Shown here piece after piece: positions 12,564-50,465 of a stretch of 64,000 nucleotides of DNA; positions within the stretch are counted from its first letter, which is position 1, and each line of letters begins with the position of its first letter. This stretch comes from a virus. Made by a program: the position numbers and the translations under genes. Below the pieces are notes generated by a model that was not told the DNA's origin, did not search any database, and saw only the letters and a list, made by a program, of their open reading frames with translations. The stretch lies in the IMG/VR virus record IMGVR_UViG_3300005340_000003, positions 1-64,000 of that record; one strand, written 5' to 3'.

Positions 12564-12862
12564 GAAGGCGGAATTTGTTCCACGAATTTCACGATCCGGG
12601 TATGATTACCCGGAAGAATGCAATCGTCATCGGAATAGACATGGCCATAATCGATTCCGGAACCTAGATATTCCTTCAAATACACAACCCGGGGCTCAGG
12701 TTTCACCCGATATCTTTCGGTCCCGAAGTTCCAACTCGGATCATTGTTCGAGACATCTTCCCAACCGTTTGAAGATGCAGACCAAAATTGAATTATCTTT
12801 CCGGCTCGATGCGCCCGAGCTAGTTCAATAATTTCGTCCGTAGGGATATTTCCGAGTCTCAT
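12560..12862 (-). CDS. Hypothetical protein, YRxKP family
   Basis: WNFGTERYRVKPEPR motif shared with three other ORFs in the window. Confidence 0.6.
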   Translation of the reverse strand: MRLGNIPTDEIIELARAHRAGKIIQFWSASSNGWEDVSNNDPSWNFGTERYRVKPEPRVVYLKEYLGSGIDYGHVYSDDDCILPGNHTRIVKFVEQIPPS

Positions 12863-13491
12863 AACAGTTGATCTTTCTTTGGTTCGAGCACCACGCGCAA
12901 TTTCTTCAACGCGCATGAGTGCAGATTTTGGATGTGTTGCCGGGAGTAGCCGATTCGTTCGCCGATTTCGCCGAAGGAAAATCCAGACTCATACCTGAGT
13001 ATAAAAATGGCTCGCTCTCGGTCATTCAATACTCGAAATATAGCAGGTCGGAGACCGGCGAGCAACTCTTTAGTTTCGAGATTTGAGGTGTCGATTTCGC
13101 AGACTGTCGGCACCAAGGCGTTTCCGTGATCCGGATCAAGCTTTCCGGATTCACCTGGGGTAATGAAATCAATCGGGCAATGTTCCGCCTGCCGCACCAC
13201 TAATCGGCTTTTGAATTCCTTGCTGATTTGTCCTCTCAAATATTGTTTGCTAAAGGCGAAAAATGTTATCCCGTTCGATTTTCGCCGGCAATAGTTCTTC
13301 GCGGCCTGCCGCAACGCAATCCAACACATACTCGTCAACTCGCCGTCGTTCAAGCCGCCTCGGGAACAATGCCGAGCGTAAATGATCGCTTCCGACATAT
13401 TCGCGAGAGCGAGTTTGTCGAGAGCGCCTTTCGTCCCCTTTCGAATCAGCTTGTGCTCTTCGTCGAGGGTTATTGTTTGTGAAATCCTCAT
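12859..13491 (-). CDS. Sigma70-family RNA polymerase sigma factor
   Basis: Region 2-like IALRQAAKNY...FFAFSKQYLRGQI; region 4 LNDRERAIFILRY...SFGEIGERIGYSRQHIQNLHSCALKKLR. Confidence 0.85.
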   Translation of the reverse strand: MRISQTITLDEEHKLIRKGTKGALDKLALANMSEAIIYARHCSRGGLNDGELTSMCWIALRQAAKNYCRRKSNGITFFAFSKQYLRGQISKEFKSRLVVRQAEHCPIDFITPGESGKLDPDHGNALVPTVCEIDTSNLETKELLAGLRPAIFRVLNDRERAIFILRYESGFSFGEIGERIGYSRQHIQNLHSCALKKLRVVLEPKKDQLL

Positions 13492-24060: not shown

Positions 24061-25329
24061 TTATTCTTTCGTTTTCTCCGCCTGCAAAAATACTGCTGGC
24101 GAGCCTCGTTCTACTACATTCGCGGCCTCCAGACAACTCTTGAATTCTTGGATCGCATGTTTTTTACTGCCGCGAGGTGCCTTCGCTCCGATTGAGTCCT
24201 CAATCGCGCCAATGCTCACGTCGAGCGCCTGGGCGTATTCTTCCTCCGTCAAATACCGCAATGCCTCGCGCTTGAATCCGGCCATATCGGTAACTGCGCG
24301 GCTTCCGTCCCGTTGTTGCAGGCGGTATCCTTCAGGAAGCGGAGCACCACGAAGAACCCTCTCCGCCGTAACCTTCCGGAACGCTTCCGACCAGACTTTC
24401 ATTACCTGGGCGAGTTGCATCCCGAGACCGGTATTCGCCGGGTCTTGAACCATACTCGGAGTCACTGAAGCCGGGATTTTAAGTGGGGCGAATTTGTTTC
24501 CGACAGTGCAAGCGAATTTGGTAACAGCGGGACAGATGCCCGTATGTTTGCAAAAAAGACAGTTCGGAATAGTCGGATTTGCAGATGAAAAATCTGCTTT
24601 AGCCCGGGCCATTCTCGCCCGTTCAACGACAACCGAAACCCGAAGGAGTAGCGACAGAATTTCGGAACGGTGGAAAACGTGATCGTCAAGAAAACCGATT
24701 GCTGGCTGCTTGATCCAGAAGCGAACCGATTCGAGCTTCGGAAATTTTTTGAATAGACCCAAAACATAAGCGATTGCCTGGAGGTTGTTTTTGACTTTCT
24801 CGACCGACCACACACCAAATTTCCAATCGAAGGCTTCACAGTAAGTGCCAGCATGAGAGAAAAACGCCCGGTCGAAATATCCTGCGGTCGTTGATTGAAT
24901 CTTCAAAAGAATCGAGCCGAGACCAACTTTGATTTCGTCTTCGAATTCCAGGTCGTCAATCGGGAGGTAAGTCTCGGTCAATTCGAGAATCTCCGGATAC
25001 GATCTGTGATCCGGAAGTTCAGAAATCATCGCATGCGCCCGCGCATCGACCGCCAACTGTTTTCGCTCTTCGTAAAAATCCAGGCACTCAGCCGCCATCA
25101 AAGCGTCATCATCGCTGAGGGACTCATCGTCCATTCTGTCCTCAGTAACCTTGTGCATTTTGGTGCCGGCAATGGCCCGAATATGGCTCTCGTCTCTTCC
25201 TTCATAGCACGGACAGGCTTCGAGACTTTGTAAGGTGGAGGGAGAGTAAGGATGGTGAACGCGATCCTCTTGCTTCGGTCGTTGTTCATTTATCAGAGTT
25301 TGTTCTTTCAACGCTTGTTCGAGATTCAT
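24061..25329 (-). CDS. Cas4-like PD-(D/E)XK nuclease (DUF2800-like)
   Basis: HHPYSPS...CP; GT.MH; GYFD...FDWKFG; NLQAIAY; CLFC...CP. Confidence 0.85.
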   Translation of the reverse strand: MNLEQALKEQTLINEQRPKQEDRVHHPYSPSTLQSLEACPCYEGRDESHIRAIAGTKMHKVTEDRMDDESLSDDDALMAAECLDFYEERKQLAVDARAHAMISELPDHRSYPEILELTETYLPIDDLEFEDEIKVGLGSILLKIQSTTAGYFDRAFFSHAGTYCEAFDWKFGVWSVEKVKNNLQAIAYVLGLFKKFPKLESVRFWIKQPAIGFLDDHVFHRSEILSLLLRVSVVVERARMARAKADFSSANPTIPNCLFCKHTGICPAVTKFACTVGNKFAPLKIPASVTPSMVQDPANTGLGMQLAQVMKVWSEAFRKVTAERVLRGAPLPEGYRLQQRDGSRAVTDMAGFKREALRYLTEEEYAQALDVSIGAIEDSIGAKAPRGSKKHAIQEFKSCLEAANVVERGSPAVFLQAEKTKE

Positions 25330-25925
25330 TGGCCTTTTCCTCCCTCGTCGCCGACGATGGTTTTCTTGAACATCACCCGGGCTGCGGTGTGCCAGATGAC
25401 GATCCCTTCGGGCTGCATGAATCCAGGAGACGCCACGCTACCTTTCTCCGCTAGTTCCTGAAGTGTCCAGGCAACATTACCGGTTGTGAAAAGTCCTCGA
25501 TACAGTGTCGGAACTACAAGGCAACACTCGGGCGGCTTTTCCTTCCCATCCGGACCCCATCGGTCCACATTGAAAAGTGAAAAGTGTTTTTCCGTCAAAC
25601 CGTAGCGACGTTGAATTCCTCCGCCCCACCATTCGCCGAAGTGCCGTCCCTGTCCGAGTTTCACCAATTCTTCCGCGTTGGACTGCACCCATTTCGCGAA
25701 TCCGTAATTATCGTTGTCCGGAGTGATCCAACGGGTGCGACTGCCTGCGGCAATCCAGGGACCGTTCGAACCGACGCGAACCAAAGGAATGTCATTTGGA
25801 TTTGCCACCTCGTCGAGAACTTCAGTGATGAAAATCTGTGCGTTAGTGCCGTCGATCTTTTCGGTGATAACACACTCGCGGCTGAGACGCGCCATTTTCG
25901 GAAACGTTTCAAAGGTGCTATTCAT
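25326..25925 (-). CDS. RNA ligase (Rnl2-like adenylyltransferase domain)
   Basis: Motif I TEKIDGTN, GSR, FGEWWG, FSLF, EGIVI, FKK. Confidence 0.85.
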   Translation of the reverse strand: MNSTFETFPKMARLSRECVITEKIDGTNAQIFITEVLDEVANPNDIPLVRVGSNGPWIAAGSRTRWITPDNDNYGFAKWVQSNAEELVKLGQGRHFGEWWGGGIQRRYGLTEKHFSLFNVDRWGPDGKEKPPECCLVVPTLYRGLFTTGNVAWTLQELAEKGSVASPGFMQPEGIVIWHTAARVMFKKTIVGDEGGKGQ

Positions 25926-46681: not shown

Positions 46682-46787
46682 AAAGATTCATAACCAATCC
46701 GAGAACGGACACAGATGCCTTGATTGGAGGCTTCATTATTTCCGTGGCTGTCGCTACCGTGATAATCCTCATTGTGTGCGCTCTTAC

Positions 46788-47597
46788 ATGAAAGTTTACA
46801 GCTACATTCGGGTCTCGGGTCGCGGACAAGTCGGCGGGGAAGGCCCCGACCGCCAGCGTGAGAGCATCAACGCCTTCTGTGCGGCCCGAGGACTTTTCTC
46901 CAACGGCGAGTTTTTCGAGGCCGGCGTCTCCGGCACGGTCGATGGAATGGACCGCCCTGAATTCTCCGACATGATCGAGCGGATCGAATGTCTGCGTTTA
47001 AACGGCGCTGAATGCGACGGGTTCGTTATCGAGCGGCTCGACCGGTTGGCGCGTGATTTAATGGTTCAGGAGGTTCTACTCAGTGAATGCCGGAAGCGTG
47101 ACATTAAGGTTTTCGCTGCCGACCAGGGGGAACTTCTCGACCTCGCTTCGGATGCCGGCGATCCGACACGCAAGCTCATCAGGCAGGTTATGGGAGCCCT
47201 CGCGGAGTGGGAGAAATCTCAGACGGTTTTGAAGTTGCGTAAAGCGCGTCAGGCGGTTAAGGTTCGAACTGGACGTTGTGAAGGTGCCAAGCCGTATGGC
47301 GTCACTCCTGAAGAGCGGGGGATTTTGACGGCCTTGAAACTTTTCGTCCGTCCGGATAGCACTTTGAAGGACATCGCGTCACTACTTAACCGGGAAGGTT
47401 TTCATACCCGGCACGGCGGCACCTGGGACGAGAAGTCCGCATTCAGGGTGATGAAGATTGCCGGCGTGTGGCAGCGAAAGCCGACCGAGAATAATTTGAA
47501 GAATTTGGGTAAACACGCAAAAAATAAGCGGGAAGTCGGGGAGCATAGCCCCGCATTGCCTCTGGCATGTGGTGTAACAGTAGCACAACCGCACTAA
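46788..47597 (+). CDS. Serine recombinase (resolvase family) with C-terminal recombinase/HTH region
   Basis: YIRVS...Q, EAGVSG, RP, RLDRLARD, AEWE, PYG. Confidence 0.9.
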   Translation: MKVYSYIRVSGRGQVGGEGPDRQRESINAFCAARGLFSNGEFFEAGVSGTVDGMDRPEFSDMIERIECLRLNGAECDGFVIERLDRLARDLMVQEVLLSECRKRDIKVFAADQGELLDLASDAGDPTRKLIRQVMGALAEWEKSQTVLKLRKARQAVKVRTGRCEGAKPYGVTPEERGILTALKLFVRPDSTLKDIASLLNREGFHTRHGGTWDEKSAFRVMKIAGVWQRKPTENNLKNLGKHAKNKREVGEHSPALPLACGVTVAQPH

Positions 47598-47892
47598 TCG
47601 AAAGGAAACAAATGGATGGAGCATACAAAGCATTCGTAAAGAGTTACGGGACAGACGTGGTGGAAGATTTCGCGAGGAAACATCGCGAGGACTGCCTCCT
47701 CCGTCTCGCTCGAATCACCAACGGCGCGGTGAAGGAATACCAGAACGGAACTACCGTCACCAAGCTTCGTAATTTGAGGAATAGCCGGTAAGAGACTTTC
47801 CGACTTTTCACTCAGAACGACACGACCACTGGAGGGCAAAAATCCAGTGGCCGTTTTTTTGCGCTCGGAGCACTTCTTATTGCGGGCGGTAT

Positions 47893-47971
47893 TGCGGGCG
47901 GCAGGTCGTAATCTGAGCGTGCCTCATAAGCAACGCATTGAAGCGAGTTTAACTCTCGCGCTTCGCATCCA
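47893..47971 (+). tRNA. Atypical tRNA-Met(CAT)-like gene
   Basis: CTCATAA anticodon loop, T-arm GCGAG-TTTAACT-CTCGC, encoded CCA; bulged acceptor and anticodon stems, D-loop lacks GG. Confidence 0.55.
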
Positions 47972-47972
47972 T

Positions 47973-48048
47973 CGGAATGTAATGTCAGTAGCAGACGGCC
48001 CGGCTCGGAACCGGGAGGCCGCTGGTGCAACTCCAGCCATTCCGACCA
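47973..48048 (+). tRNA. tRNA-Pro(CGG)
   Basis: 76 nt; CGGAATG/CATTCCG acceptor, CCCGG-CTCGGAA-CCGGG anticodon arm, GCTGG/CCAGC T-stem, ACCA end. Confidence 0.9.
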
Positions 48049-48055
48049 ATTTTAT

Positions 48056-48220
48056 CGGGGGATAGTGTAAGTATGCCTGGATAGACATAAACGGGTTGGA
48101 CGAAACTCCTGCTTCGGCGGGCATCAACCTCTGGCCCGGGAACGACGTGAAATCCCAGGAAAAGAAAGCACACCGGATGTGATTCCGGAAGTAGCGCATC
48201 ATTGCGTCTTCGCCCGACCA
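48056..48220 (+). ncRNA. tRNA-His(GTG)-like RNA with a 99-nt structured D-loop
   Basis: CGGGGGA acceptor, GTGT/GCAC D-stem, CCGGA-TGTGAT-TCCGG arm, GCGCA/TGCGT T-stem, ACCA end. Confidence 0.6.
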
Positions 48221-48226
48221 AATGTT

Positions 48227-48346
48227 AGCGGAGTGCGGCACCAACCAGGATAGGCCCTGGCCGTTGCAACGGGTTCCGGCCCGGTGGTCAAACGCCATCG
48301 GGAAAATAGGGATGTGGCTCGGTTCCACGACCTCACTTCGCGACCA
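48227..48346 (+). ncRNA. CCA-terminated multi-hairpin tRNA-like RNA
   Basis: 8-bp closing stem GCGGAGTG/CACTTCGC followed by GACCA; four internal hairpins. Confidence 0.5.
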
Positions 48347-48515
48347 ATTTTGAAACGAATCGTTTACACAAGAATTGATACTCGACCGACCGCACCCCCC
48401 GGTCAGGGTCAGGCGATCCGCGAATGGGACGACGCCTGGAGAGCGAAAGGTTTTCGGACAAAGATTCTGATTTCTCCGGACTCCGCGAAGCTCCTCGGGA
48501 TTAAACCTAAGAACC

Positions 48516-50465
48516 ATGCTGACCGACCCCGCTGAAAAATTTCTCGCGCAGCAAGTCGCTCAGAAAGTTCACTCGGATAAAAAATTCGAGGCGGCTCAAC
48601 AGATTGACGATTACCTGAAGCTCAACCTCCACCTGGAGGACGACCCGAAGCAGTTCCTTCCGGTCCTGATGCACTACGTTCACTATCTCCTGAACGCAAA
48701 CGCACCGGAAGCCGCCGCGCAGGTTCTCTGGACACCAAACCAATTCACGCCGGAGCCACAATTTACAAAAGACCTCTGGCAACTTTTCGACCGGTCCGCG
48801 CAGGGGCTGATTATGGGCGCGGCATCCTGCTCGAAGTCCTACGGAATGGGTGTAAGACTTTTTCTCGAATGGATTCGCGATCCGGAGTGGACGACCATTC
48901 GAGTGCTCGGTCCGAGCGAGGCTCACCTGGAGCAGAATCTTTTTTCTCATCTTGTCGGATTGCACAAGTCAGCATCGCTGCCGATGCCCGGGGAAATCGG
49001 GGAACTTTTCATCGGCACCGACCGGAGAAATCAGTTGTCGAGCATCATGGGCGTAATTATTCCCGTTGGCCAAAAGAAGAAGGCCGGCAGGATTCAGGGT
49101 GTGAAGCGGAAGGGACGGATCACCCGTCATGAAGTCTTCGGAACTCAAAGCAGGCTTTTTATTTTTGTGGATGAAATTGAAAACGTCCCGGGCGGTCTCT
49201 GGTCCGACATCGACAACATTCTGTCGAACATCCAAGAGGAAGGCGAGACATCCGGATTCAAAATTTTCGGCGCGTTCAACCCAACGAATCAAACAGACGA
49301 AGTGGGGAAACGAGTCGAGCCTCCTTTCGGTTGGGAAGGATTCGATGTCGAAAGCCATTACCAATGGAAATCGAAACGTGGGTGGGATGTTCTGCGTCTT
49401 GACGGGGAACGATCCGAGAATGTAGTTCAGAAAAAAGTAATCTACCCAGGACTGCAAACTTATTCCGGATTGGAGATTATCGCGAGGAATGCCGGTGGGA
49501 AATCCGCCGCAGGATATTTTTCTATGGGACGCGGTGCCTATCCGCCACAAGGCATCGAGCTTACCGTGATACCTCCGGGAATGTTAATGAAGTGGCGGGG
49601 AAAGTTCATTTGGTATGACGAACCTAAACCTGTTGGATCAGAAGATTTGGCTCTGGAGGGAGGAAACGCAGCAATATACACTCTCGGAAAATGGGGGAGA
49701 GCAACTGGTATTCTTTTTCCTCCAACCATTGAATACCCATCCGGTCGCAAGTTCATGTTTAAAGACCGCAATGGACACTCAGTCACTCGATACGGACTTC
49801 AGGCCGACCAGCAGTTCATCATTCCTAAAGGAGATACACGGGCAATGACTGACCGGACGATTGAAGTGAATCGTCGCGCGGGAGTGCGGGGGGAATTTTT
49901 CGCGTGTGATCGAACGGGCGCGGGTGCTGGAACAGCAGACCTTCTCCGGCATGAATGGAGTCCATCGCTTCATGATGTGAATTATTCTGAGGCGTGCAGC
50001 AAAGATAAAATCATGATGGAGGATTCGAAACCCTGCAACGAACAATTCGAACGAATGAATTCGGAACTCTGGTTTGCCCTCAAGTCCTGGGGCGAGTTTC
50101 AATATTTCCTCATCAACCCCGAACTGGATTTGACGAAGCTCACCGGACAACTCACTCAACGAAAATTTCGAATCGTTGGCGGGAAGACGCGAGTCGAGCC
50201 GAAGAAGGATTATGTATCGAGAGGCTTCGAATCTCCGGACGAAGCGGACAGCCTAACTCTTCTCGTTCACGCGGCACGTAAAGGTTCCGGTGTGACTCTC
50301 AGCATGTCCCTCGATAATGTCGGCGAACTGAATCCGAATTACGACGATTCGGATGGATGGCTCGACGAGATAACACTTTTGGGTGGGGCTCGGATCGATG
50401 AGAGCAACCGCACGCAATTTCTCGATGACGGAATGAAGCCGGTTCACGAGGACGCAATTTTATGA
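48516..50465 (+). CDS. terL: Terminase large subunit
   Basis: Walker A-like GAASCSKS, Walker B FIFVDE, coupling motif FNP; nuclease EDLA, CDRTGAG, SPDEADSL. Confidence 0.85.
   Translation: MLTDPAEKFLAQQVAQKVHSDKKFEAAQQIDDYLKLNLHLEDDPKQFLPVLMHYVHYLLNANAPEAAAQVLWTPNQFTPEPQFTKDLWQLFDRSAQGLIMGAASCSKSYGMGVRLFLEWIRDPEWTTIRVLGPSEAHLEQNLFSHLVGLHKSASLPMPGEIGELFIGTDRRNQLSSIMGVIIPVGQKKKAGRIQGVKRKGRITRHEVFGTQSRLFIFVDEIENVPGGLWSDIDNILSNIQEEGETSGFKIFGAFNPTNQTDEVGKRVEPPFGWEGFDVESHYQWKSKRGWDVLRLDGERSENVVQKKVIYPGLQTYSGLEIIARNAGGKSAAGYFSMGRGAYPPQGIELTVIPPGMLMKWRGKFIWYDEPKPVGSEDLALEGGNAAIYTLGKWGRATGILFPPTIEYPSGRKFMFKDRNGHSVTRYGLQADQQFIIPKGDTRAMTDRTIEVNRRAGVRGEFFACDRTGAGAGTADLLRHEWSPSLHDVNYSEACSKDKIMMEDSKPCNEQFERMNSELWFALKSWGEFQYFLINPELDLTKLTGQLTQRKFRIVGGKTRVEPKKDYVSRGFESPDEADSLTLLVHAARKGSGVTLSMSLDNVGELNPNYDDSDGWLDEITLLGGARIDESNRTQFLDDGMKPVHEDAIL

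What the first reader, a model, noticed from the sequence alone, without database searches (positions are those of the whole stretch)
48227..48346. Fourth CCA-ended RNA: acceptor-like stem closing four hairpins, no canonical cloverleaf
GCGGAGTG (48228-48235) pairs with CACTTCGC (48334-48341), followed by GACCA, giving the same CGACCAA 3' end as the two preceding RNAs. Inside are CCAGG/CCTGG, CCGTT/AACGG, CCCGGTGG/CCATCGGG and GTGG/CCAC stems. With its neighbours it forms an array in which three of four units are non-canonical, suggesting a family of tRNA-mimic RNAs (anti-defence decoys or ribosome modulators).
Basis: partly seen in the sequence, partly recalled or inferred. Interest (0 to 1): 0.7.

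Follow-up and report, generated by a model that had tools for sequence, protein, structure and literature searches.

The report
Non-decoding tRNA-shaped RNA in phage
An uncultured soil phage encodes, just before its DNA-packaging genes, a conserved 120-base RNA that keeps the end, elbow and CCA tail of a tRNA but cannot read codons; it belongs to a new small family whose job is unknown.

Summary
The fold is under selection. The same RNA occurs in two related phage contigs (L003, L004). Across the three copies 99% of pair cells stay paired and 14 of 35 pairs change on both sides; slid controls give 0.

It is not a tRNA by any test I ran. ARAGORN finds nothing and Rfam gives no hit even at E<=10. 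There is no conserved 7-nt anticodon loop. It does keep an acceptor-type closing stem, a single-stranded ACCA tail, a D-like loop (RAUAGGCC) and a T-like hairpin. It is the last unit of a same-strand array with one real tRNA-Pro(CGG) and two other irregular units. The array lies between a conserved terminator and a small ORF plus the large terminase.

Best reading: a non-decoding tRNA-shaped stable RNA of a new three-member family, an accessory gene that two complete relatives lack. I infer that tRNA-processing enzymes make it and that it acts by tRNA mimicry; neither is shown. The L004 copy weakly resembles tRNA-Sec-like 8/4 or 9/4 tRNAs.

Unchecked notes from this scan describe similar anticodon-less tRNA mimics in other phages. 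No RNA data exist.

The parts
47826..47860 (+). Intrinsic terminator-like hairpin (CCACTGG/CCAGTGG, then a T-run) that ends the upstream resolvase and 74-aa gene unit and precedes the RNA array
   Evidence: Read from the sequence. It is conserved in L003, and L002/L004 carry a different but still paired stem. The scan tool missed it because the loop is 11 nt.
47894..47971 (+). Unit 1: irregular tRNA-Met-like RNA (CTCATAA loop, TTTAACT T-loop, shrunken D arm without GG, TCCA end); a second GCGGGCGG copy lies at 47882-47889
   Evidence: It aligns with canonical tRNA-Met(CAT) genes at the same slot in L005 and L006 (ARAGORN and Rfam). ARAGORN and Rfam do not call it in the window.
47973..48048 (+). 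Unit 2: canonical tRNA-Pro (anticodon CGG) with encoded CCA
   Evidence: Rfam RF00005, 50.5 bits, against a gathering score of 29. It is the only RF00005 match in the whole 74.6-kb phage. Orthologs in L002 and L003.
48056..48220 (+). Unit 3: tRNA scaffold with a roughly 95-nt folded insert in the D loop, a 6-nt loop at the anticodon position, a small non-T-loop hairpin and an ACCA end
   Evidence: Fold. The L004 homolog has a much shorter insert and compensatory changes in the last hairpin.
48227..48346 (+). Unit 4, the finding: a 120-nt tRNA-shaped non-decoding RNA from A48227 to the ACCA at 48343-48346
   Evidence: Covariance model R1: window 147 bits, L003 139 bits, L004 29.9 bits (E 3e-5). 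Covariation.
48228..48238 (+). P1, 5' strand: 8 bp, a C/U mismatch, then 2 bp; pairs with 48331-48341 (acceptor-type closing stem)
   Evidence: 5 of 10 pairs change on both sides and stay paired.
48245..48260 (+). P2: D-arm-like hairpin; the loop RAUAGGCC holds the GG conserved in all three copies
48261..48272 (+). P3: 4-bp stub hairpin with a conserved UGCA loop, at the slot where a tRNA has its anticodon arm
   Evidence: 2 of 4 pairs covary; the loop is conserved.
48273..48313 (+). P4: long two-part arm (P4a 5 bp, internal loop, P4b 8 bp, apical loop UCAAACG) that directly abuts P5
   Evidence: Pairs that covary: P4a 2 of 5, P4b 4 of 8. The apical and internal loops are not conserved.
48314..48328 (+). 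P5: T-arm-like hairpin, GUGG/CCAC with the 7-nt loop CUCGGUU (UUCGAUU in L004)
   Evidence: The stem is invariant in all three copies. The L004 loop is a canonical T loop.
48350..48535 (+). Small conserved ORF (61 aa, TTG start) that begins 3 nt after the ACCA of unit 4 and overlaps the terminase start
   Evidence: Alignment A4: 53-60% identity, 28 invariant residues. In L004 the ORF cannot extend upstream. Longer homologs exist in more distant relatives.
48516..50465 (+). Large terminase subunit (TerL), first large gene of the late module
   Evidence: No Pfam, PHROG, NCBIfam or PDB sequence hit. The AlphaFold model (mean pLDDT 51; residues 360-590 score 70-90) matches the Sf6, E217, G20c and SPP1 large terminases by Foldseek (E 1.4e-7, probability 1.0).

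Best explanation
Window 48227-48346 is the gene for a roughly 120-nt stable RNA that is shaped like a tRNA but does not decode. It is the last unit of a four-unit tRNA and tRNA-like array in a 74.6-kb uncultured soil phage.

Shown: it has six helices kept by compensatory change. They are an acceptor-type closing stem followed by single-stranded ACCA, a D-like hairpin whose loop keeps GG, a stub hairpin with a conserved UGCA loop, a long two-part arm of two helices, and a T-like hairpin. It lies on the same strand as a real tRNA-Pro, 6-8 nt from its neighbours. It is present in three related phages and absent from others.

Inferred: the array is transcribed as one precursor from a start site just after the conserved terminator. 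Each unit is then released by the host tRNA machinery: RNase P at the 5' side, and endo- and exonucleolytic trimming to the encoded CCA at the 3' side. The D-like and T-like loops would dock into a tRNA elbow. The RNA would therefore present the 'top half' of a tRNA while the decoding half is replaced.

Most likely action (inference, roughly one chance in three): molecular mimicry. It would occupy or divert a protein that recognises tRNA bodies or CCA ends, such as a host tRNA-targeting defence nuclease or toxin, or a tRNA-processing or modifying enzyme, during late infection.

Because only 3 nt separate its CCA from the TTG start of the next ORF, cutting it out would also create the 5' end of the terminase-operon mRNA.
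For: Structure and selection:
- The structure-blind window/L003 alignment has 4 pairs changed on both sides and kept.
- Model R1 finds exactly three members: 147, 139 and 29.9 bits.
- On the three-copy alignment, 99% of cells are paired, 14 of 35 pairs have double changes, 0 of 500 shuffles reach this, and slid controls give 0.
- Pairwise counts: window vs L004 has 11 double and 4 single kept changes and 0 broken.

tRNA-like marks:
- A closing stem followed by GACCA or AACCA; units 2, 3 and 4 end in CGACCAA.
- The D-like loop RAUAGGCC and the T-like hairpin are conserved.
- The L004 copy has a canonical UUCGAUU loop and gives a weak RF01852 tRNA-Sec alignment (20.4 bits, E 0.11), with a 9-pair acceptor stem (one pair flagged non-standard) next to a 4-bp T stem.

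Array context:
- tRNA-Pro lies at 47973-48045.
- Unit 1 aligns with true tRNA-Met genes of relatives.
- Relatives carry tRNAs and even a tmRNA at the same locus.

Non-decoding: no tRNA call. The apical loops are UCAAACG, a 9-nt UUCAGACGC and CUGCAAA, so they are not conserved.

Accessory: two complete relatives lack it.

Position: a terminator upstream, then a conserved small ORF and a fold-identified TerL downstream.

Precedent that phage tRNAs act as decoy or supplement against tRNA-cleaving defences: PMC13096335. Precedent for irregular, apparently non-translating tRNAs in soil polycistrons: PMC5389517.
Against: - There is no expression, end-mapping, charging or binding evidence of any kind.
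- Only three sequences from one narrow clade are known, and the three-copy alignment was fitted to the model, which flatters pair counts.
- The window's fold is only modestly better than shuffles (z = -1.77).
- The stack from closing stem to T stem is longer than in any tRNA: about 15 layers with 2 unpaired bases, against 12-13. RNase P and CCA-enzyme recognition is therefore assumed, not assured.
- The L004 copy encodes CCG, not CCA.
- Two of the three T-like loops have C54/G58 instead of U54/A58.
- Nothing ties the RNA to a particular defence system or partner, and the host is unknown.
Confidence: 0.6

Rival explanations
1. It acts mainly in cis, as a tRNA-like processing signal ('punctuation') in the leader of the late operon. 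Excision of the last array unit by tRNA-processing enzymes would define a near-leaderless 5' end for the mRNA of the small ORF and terminase, and the excised RNA would have no job of its own.
For: A conserved terminator lies upstream of the array, and there is no room for a promoter or ribosome-binding site between the ACCA (48346) and the TTG start (48350). The same 3-nt spacing occurs in L003, where unit 4 is last, and in L004, where unit 3 is last. Relatives without an array place the ORF start a few tens of nt after the terminator.
Against: One unit would be enough, yet four are kept. In L004 unit 4 is internal, not adjacent to the ORF. P3 and P4 and their covariation would be pointless for a bare processing signal. 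L002 uses a plain tRNA-Pro at that place, and L005/L006 put a terminator between the tRNA and the ORF. Two complete relatives do without it.
Confidence: 0.15
2. It is a working but irregular tRNA, of the tRNA-Sec-like or allo-tRNA type (8/4 or 9/4) with an extra arm. It would be charged and would decode through the apical loop of P4.
For: An 8-bp acceptor stem and a 4-bp T stem. The L004 copy has a textbook anticodon loop, CUGCAAA (GCA), and a weak tRNA-Sec alignment. Irregular 8/4 tRNAs with an extra loop are reported from soil polycistrons and phages (PMC5389517).
Against: The window loop UCAAACG has C33 and C37, and the L003 loop is 9 nt, so there is no conserved anticodon. P4a plus P4b gives a 13-bp arm. 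The acceptor and T stems are not contiguous in the window or in L003. Rfam tRNA and tRNA-Sec give no hit for the window copy even at E<=10. The phage reads long ORFs under code 11, so it needs no suppressor.
Confidence: 0.07
3. It is a decaying tRNA pseudogene or a duplication remnant with no function.
For: Phage tRNA arrays turn over quickly. Unit 1 carries a local duplication (47882-47901). The unit is missing from close relatives.
Against: Neutral decay does not produce 14 pairs with compensatory double changes and 99% paired cells. The window and L004 copies differ at 45 of 101 aligned positions without one broken pair.
Confidence: 0.05
4. The region codes for protein: the antisense 197-aa ORF 47924-48517, or an N-terminal extension of the small ORF from GTG 48284.
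For: Both frames are open in the window.
Against: The antisense ORF has different limits in L003 and L004, and its product is similar only where the RNA is similar. It has no family hit. The upstream extension of the small ORF has a different length in L003 and is closed in L004. The substitution pattern is RNA-type.
Confidence: 0.02

Closest known systems
Irregular tRNA-Sec-like tRNAs: allo-tRNAs (8/4, 9/3), selC* tRNA-Cys and 'E-loop' tRNAs in soil polycistrons (Mukai et al. 2017, PMC5389517)
   Same: A long acceptor stem with a 4-bp T stem, and an extra arm that gives a five-stem junction. They occur in soil metagenomes, in phages and in polycistrons of irregular tRNAs. Several tested members are charged but not used, or are inactive in translation, so a non-translational role is suspected there as well. 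The L004 copy aligns weakly to RF01852.
   Different: Those RNAs keep a 7-nt anticodon loop and a contiguous 12-13-bp acceptor/T branch. Unit 4 has no conserved anticodon loop, has a stub hairpin plus a 13-bp two-part arm, and has extra unpaired bases around the junction. It scores far below the family threshold, and the window copy does not score at all.
Phage T4 RNA species I and II: small stable RNAs encoded inside the T4 tRNA gene cluster
   Same: They are non-tRNA stable RNAs sitting among phage tRNA genes (the T4 tRNA-region map in PMC2330249 shows 'RNA species I and II'). From my own knowledge, not checked here: they are made from the tRNA precursor transcripts, and their function is still unknown.
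   Different: The phage and host groups are unrelated. Unit 4 has a defined five-arm, elbow-bearing fold and an encoded CCA.
Canonical tRNA (Rfam RF00005)
   Same: An acceptor-type stem closing the molecule, a 3' ACCA, a D-like loop with GG, a T-like 7-nt loop, and a position in a tRNA gene array.
   Different: No anticodon arm, 120 nt instead of 74-90 nt, too long an acceptor-to-T stack, and no match to the model.
tRNA-like domains of other RNAs: tmRNA, bacterial Y RNA (YrlA), plant-virus 3' tRNA-like structures, plant mitochondrial t-elements
   Same: The principle is the same: keep the part of a tRNA that processing or binding enzymes see and replace the decoding part. Relatives L019-L021 carry a true tmRNA at the same locus.
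   Different: No Rfam match to any of them. There is no mRNA-like reading frame, no Ro-binding stem, and it is not at the 3' end of a genome.

Membership tests
tRNA (RF00005) | Score at or above the Rfam gathering threshold (29 bits), or a call by ARAGORN | tested here: not met
   No RF00005 match over 48222-48350 even at E<=10. ARAGORN finds 0 genes in the window.
tRNA (RF00005) | Anticodon arm: 5-bp stem with a 7-nt loop, U33 and a purine at 37, conserved among orthologs | tested here: not met
   The arm at the anticodon slot (P3) is 4 bp with a UGCA tetraloop. The P4 apical loops are UCAAACG, UUCAGACGC and CUGCAAA.
tRNA (RF00005) | Acceptor stem closing the molecule, followed by a discriminator base and CCA | tested here: met
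   An 8-bp stem, then G-ACCA (window) or A-ACCA (L003); L004 has ACCG.
tRNA (RF00005) | D loop with G18 G19 and a T loop (UUCRANY) able to form the elbow | tested here: inconclusive
   The P2 loop RAUAGGCC keeps GG in all three copies. The P5 loop is canonical in L004 (UUCGAUU) but is CUCGGUU and CUCAGUU in the window and L003. The tertiary contact cannot be tested with these tools.
tRNA-Sec-like / allo-tRNA (RF01852; Mukai 2017) | Contiguous 12-13-bp acceptor plus T branch in an 8/4, 9/3, 8/5 or 9/4 layout | tested here: not met
   Window: 8 bp, a mismatch, 2 bp, 2 unpaired nt, then 4 bp. L004 is close to 9/4 with one mismatch.
tRNA-Sec-like / allo-tRNA (RF01852; Mukai 2017) | Score at or above the gathering threshold (47 bits) | tested here: not met
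   The L004 copy scores 20.4 bits, E 0.11. The window copy has no match.
tmRNA (RF00023) | tRNA-like domain plus a tag reading frame and pseudoknots; Rfam score | tested here: not met
   No match in the window. Relatives L019-L021 have a real one at 78.7 bits.
Phage T4 RNA species I/II type (stable non-tRNA RNAs made from tRNA-cluster transcripts) | A stable RNA processed out of a tRNA precursor transcript | not testable with these tools
   No listed run that holds the stretch is on record as RNA. It needs Northern blots or small-RNA sequencing.

The most novel reading that the evidence does not exclude
Unit 4, together with units 1 and 3, is a natural 'tRNA-scaffolded' effector RNA. It would be one of a fast-shuffling cassette of tRNA mimics that soil phages express with their late genes. 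The mimics would disarm host immunity or toxins that recognise tRNA bodies, long variable arms or CCA ends. The tRNA frame would supply processing and stability, and the replaced arms (P3, P4) would supply specificity.
Probability: 0.25. Interest if true: 0.8.

Novelty: new variant of a known kind. Interest (0 to 1): 0.5.

Why it matters
Phage tRNA clusters are usually read as a fix for codon usage. More recently they have been read as replacements or decoys for tRNAs that host defences cleave. This RNA keeps everything a tRNA-binding enzyme would see, has clearly given up decoding, and is still under strong structural selection. That argues that some 'tRNA genes' in phages are RNA effectors. 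If the mimicry idea is right, such units would mark new tRNA-directed defence and counter-defence pairs. They would also be natural examples of the tRNA-scaffold design used to express RNAs in bacteria. For annotation, standard tRNA finders miss all three irregular units here, and ARAGORN even misses the real tRNA-Pro, so arrays like this are invisible in current phage annotation.

Tried and rejected
- Expression: no RNA holder listed among the public runs.
- Population variants: four DNA runs were laid on the region. Where contigs covered unit 4 they were identical to the window, so they gave no extra covariation. One loose end in run X9 hints at a further relative with an L004-type T arm in front of a unit-3-like RNA, but it could not be retrieved.
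- Wider family search: exact T-arm pattern in IMG/VR, 53 hits, of which only L003 and L004 are members and nearly all the rest lie in ordinary tRNA genes. Combined D-loop, UGCA and T-arm patterns, strict and relaxed, found only the same two.
- The same kind of pattern in 185,579 prokaryote genomes gave 31 hits. By eye nearly all look like protein-coding sequence, with many near-identical copies across genomes. None matched model R1 convincingly; the best scored 15.3 bits at E 0.22.
- The terminase-based search of metagenome contigs returned mainly the contigs already found. The same search of prokaryote genomes found nothing, and GenBank phages gave nothing. The host stays unknown.
- R1 against jumbo-phage arrays holding 90-nt long-arm tRNA-Ile(TAT) genes: no relation.
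- A 'CACTnTT' promoter box after the terminator was considered. The window's own copy does not fit the pattern and hits are scattered through the genome, so I dropped it. The sigma-70 scan found no promoter.
- G3:U70-type alanine identity: the G:U pair in P1 is G:C in L003, so it is not conserved.
- The antisense ORF and the N-terminal extension of the small ORF are rejected as genes.
- The supplement of PMC5389517, with drawings of the E-loop tRNA and the five-stem allo-tRNAs, is not held, so no direct structural comparison was possible.

Full report
**Where it is.** The window is the first 64 kb of a complete 74.6-kb IMG/VR virus record with direct terminal repeats. DNA runs that hold the stretch are rhizosphere and soil metagenomes. 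The finding lies in a 558-nt stretch without a conserved reading frame, 47792-48349. Upstream are a resolvase gene (46776-47597; Pfam PF00239), a conserved 74-aa gene (47567-47791) and a terminator-like hairpin (47826-47860). Downstream is a small conserved ORF that starts at TTG 48350, then a 649-aa protein. That protein has no sequence-family hit. Its model matches large terminases by fold: Sf6 gp2 at E 1.4e-7, plus several terminase nuclease domains. The RNA array therefore sits at the head of the packaging and late module.

**The observation.** The minimum-free-energy fold reproduces the layout. I make two corrections. CCGTT/AACGG is really a 4-bp stem with a UGCA tetraloop. Two helices were missed: GTTCC/GGGAT (P4a), which carries the CCCGGTGG hairpin (P4b), and a 2-bp extension of the closing stem beyond a C/U mismatch. 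The molecule is a five-way junction:
- P1, an acceptor-type closing stem;
- P2, a D-like hairpin;
- P3, a stub hairpin;
- P4, a long two-part arm;
- P5, a T-like hairpin.

No unpaired base lies between P2, P3, P4 and P5. The 3' tail is G-ACCA, and units 2, 3 and 4 all end in CGACCAA.

**Is it more than chance?** Yes. Using the terminase, I collected 21 related viral loci and 16 metagenome loci, largely the same contigs. BLAST found a unit-4 homolog in L003 at 80% identity. A covariance model built from the structure-blind window/L003 alignment found a third, much more diverged copy in L004 (29.9 bits, E 3e-5). It found nothing else in about 1.2 Mb of related and unrelated loci.

The window/L003 pair alone shows four pairs changed on both sides and still paired. 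On the three-copy alignment, 99% of cells are paired and 14 of 35 pairs carry double changes. All of P1, P2, P3, P4a and P4b covary. No shuffle reaches these values, and none of the slid structures shows a single double change. The window and L004 copies differ at 45 of 101 aligned positions without breaking one pair.

There are caveats. Only three sequences exist, they come from one clade, and the three-copy alignment was fitted to the model. The fold z-scores are -1.77, -3.29 and -2.43.

**It is not translated.** The 197-aa antisense ORF has other limits in L003 and L004. Its product is similar only over the stretch where the RNA itself is similar. The small downstream ORF is conserved from its TTG onward. 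In L004 it cannot extend upstream.

**What it is.** It is not a tRNA by any operational test. ARAGORN reports nothing. Rfam 15 reports no family at gathering thresholds, and no tRNA-clan match even at E<=10 on the isolated 129 nt.

It does keep the parts of a tRNA that enzymes see:
- a closing stem with a single-stranded ACCA;
- a hairpin at the D position whose loop (RAUAGGCC) keeps GG in all copies;
- an invariant 4-bp hairpin at the T position with a 7-nt loop.

The T-position loop is the canonical UUCGAUU in L004, and CUCGGUU or CUCAGUU in the window and L003.

What is missing is a decoder. The hairpin at the anticodon slot is sealed by a UGCA tetraloop. The apical loops of the long arm are UCAAACG, a 9-nt UUCAGACGC, and CUGCAAA.

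The L004 copy is the most tRNA-like of the three. Rfam aligns it weakly to tRNA-Sec (20.4 bits, E 0.11, threshold 47), with a 9-pair acceptor stem (one pair flagged non-standard), a 4-bp T stem and CUGCAAA as the anticodon loop. The family may therefore descend from the tRNA-Sec-like 8/4 or 9/4 irregular tRNAs that Mukai et al. described from soil bacteria, their phages and polycistrons of irregular tRNAs. Some of those carry an extra loop or five-stem junctions, and several were charged but not used in translation (PMC5389517). In the window copy the stack from closing stem to T stem is about 15 layers with two unpaired bases. That is too long for a normal acceptor/T branch.

**The neighbours.** Unit 2 (47973-48048) is a real tRNA-Pro(CGG) (50.5 bits). 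It is the only RF00005 match in the whole phage.

Unit 1 aligns with canonical tRNA-Met(CAT) genes that occupy the same slot in L005 and L006, but it has lost most of its D arm.

Unit 3 is a tRNA frame with a roughly 95-nt folded insert in the D loop and a 6-nt loop where the anticodon loop should be. L004 has the same RNA with a short insert and compensatory changes.

The complement of units differs between phages whose terminases are 80-85% identical:
- window: units 1, Pro, 3, 4;
- L003: unit 1, Ala, Pro, a further acceptor-stem/CCA-ended unit that by eye resembles unit 3 without its insert, then unit 4;
- L004: units 1, 4, 3;
- L002: unit 1, a similar CCA-ended unit, then Pro.

Two complete, more distant relatives lack unit 4. 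Other relatives carry a full tmRNA and more tRNA-like genes at this locus. The locus is thus a variable island of translation-type RNAs, and unit 4 is an accessory member of it.

**How it probably works.**

Shown: a selected fold, tRNA-type ends, same-strand tandem placement with a true tRNA, accessory distribution, and no conserved anticodon.

Inferred:
- The array is one transcript that starts after the terminator.
- RNase P and 3' trimming release each unit, ending at the encoded CCA.
- The D-like and T-like loops form an elbow.
- The product is a stable RNA that mimics the upper half of a tRNA.

I take mimicry of a tRNA ligand as the most likely function. The partner could be a tRNA-cleaving or CCA-modifying defence or toxin, or a tRNA-processing enzyme. 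Phage tRNAs are already known to act as supplements or decoys against tRNA-cutting defences such as Septu and retron-Eco7, which attack the variable arm of a long-arm tRNA (PMC13096335). A unit that keeps only the recognition surfaces fits that logic. The phage also encodes an RNA-ligase-family protein (25326-25925), which may or may not relate to RNA repair. None of this is tested.

A second role is not exclusive of the first and follows from geometry. Only 3 nt separate ACCA from the TTG of the small ORF in the window and in L003. The same is true in L004, although there a different unit is last. Excision of the last unit would therefore create the 5' end of the late mRNA. As the sole function this is unlikely, because four units and elaborate covarying arms are kept, and because unit 4 is internal in L004.

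**Comparison and novelty.** The closest described things are:
- the irregular tRNA-Sec-like tRNAs of Mukai et al.;
- the small stable RNAs (species I and II) inside the T4 tRNA cluster (named in the map of PMC2330249; the rest is from my own knowledge);
- more loosely, tRNA-like domains such as that of tmRNA.

Unit 4 fails the defining tests of tRNA, tRNA-Sec and tmRNA, so I do not file it under any of them. It is a new small family of a known general kind. Unchecked notes of this scan report anticodon-less tRNA mimics in other phages. By shared short words none is a look-alike of this RNA. They suggest the phenomenon is widespread, but I did not test them.

**Verdict.** Interest is moderate. 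The structural evidence is clean for so few sequences. However, the family is tiny, the host is unknown and nothing functional can be said yet.

Noticed in passing
window 47973-48048: ARAGORN misses the one canonical tRNA of this phage (Pro, anticodon CGG, encoded CCA), although Rfam scores it at 50.5 bits. In L003 ARAGORN does call the ortholog, as tRNA-Pro(TGG).
   Followed up: partly
window 47882-47971: Unit 1 is a diverged ortholog of the tRNA-Met(CAT) genes found at the same slot in L005 and L006. It has a truncated D arm without GG, a bulged 6-bp anticodon stem and a local duplication of GCGGGCGG. Neither tRNA finder calls it. Whether it still decodes is open.
   Followed up: partly
window 48056-48220; L004 3709-3826; L003 3632-3703; L002 3834-3911: Unit 3 is a tRNA frame with a roughly 95-nt folded insert in the D loop and a 6-nt loop at the anticodon position. 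L004 has it with a short insert. By eye, L003 and L002 carry a similar unit with no insert and a 7-nt loop lacking U33.
   Followed up: partly
L019 1038-1423 (also L020, L021): More distant relatives of this phage carry a full-length tmRNA gene (Rfam 78.7 bits) upstream of the terminase. About 400 nt of further non-coding sequence follows, then a tRNA-like gene with a 6-nt anticodon loop and a tRNA-Met.
   Followed up: no
window 48350-48535: A conserved small ORF (61 aa here, about 110-160 aa in more distant relatives; N-terminal motif VYTxIDT...QG..IR.WD.AWR) starts at TTG 3 nt after the last RNA unit and overlaps the terminase start. It has no Shine-Dalgarno sequence, and the terminase gene has none either. 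It could be a small terminase subunit; not tested.
   Followed up: partly
window 48516-50465: The 649-aa protein has no Pfam, PHROG, NCBIfam or PDB sequence match but is a large terminase by predicted fold. The N-terminal ATPase part was modelled poorly (pLDDT below 50).
   Followed up: yes
window 25326-25925 (-) and 12859-13491 (-): The phage encodes an RNA-ligase-family protein (PF09414, phrog_548) next to a PD-(D/E)XK exonuclease, and a protein with sigma-70 region 4. The ligase could bear on RNA or tRNA repair, and the sigma-like protein on late promoters.
   Followed up: no
L027 494-583; L024 10145-10234; L031 1512-1601 and 2549-2638; L039 14037-14131: Many unrelated IMG/VR phages with large tRNA arrays carry a 90-95-nt tRNA-Ile(TAT) with a long variable arm and an 8-bp acceptor over a 4-bp T stem. 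It resembles the abundant allo-tRNA-UAU group of Mukai et al.
   Followed up: no
G002:C1:56419-56577 (genome of L012): In this complete relative the two tRNA genes lie about 6.6 kb upstream of the terminase, not directly before it, so the RNA island is not fixed in position across the group.
   Followed up: no
window 48051 (run X9, loose end): A rhizosphere contig joins an L004-type T arm and closing stem (...TGGTTCGATTCCACCGCGC...) directly to a unit-3-like sequence. This points to further array variants in the field that I could not retrieve.
   Followed up: no
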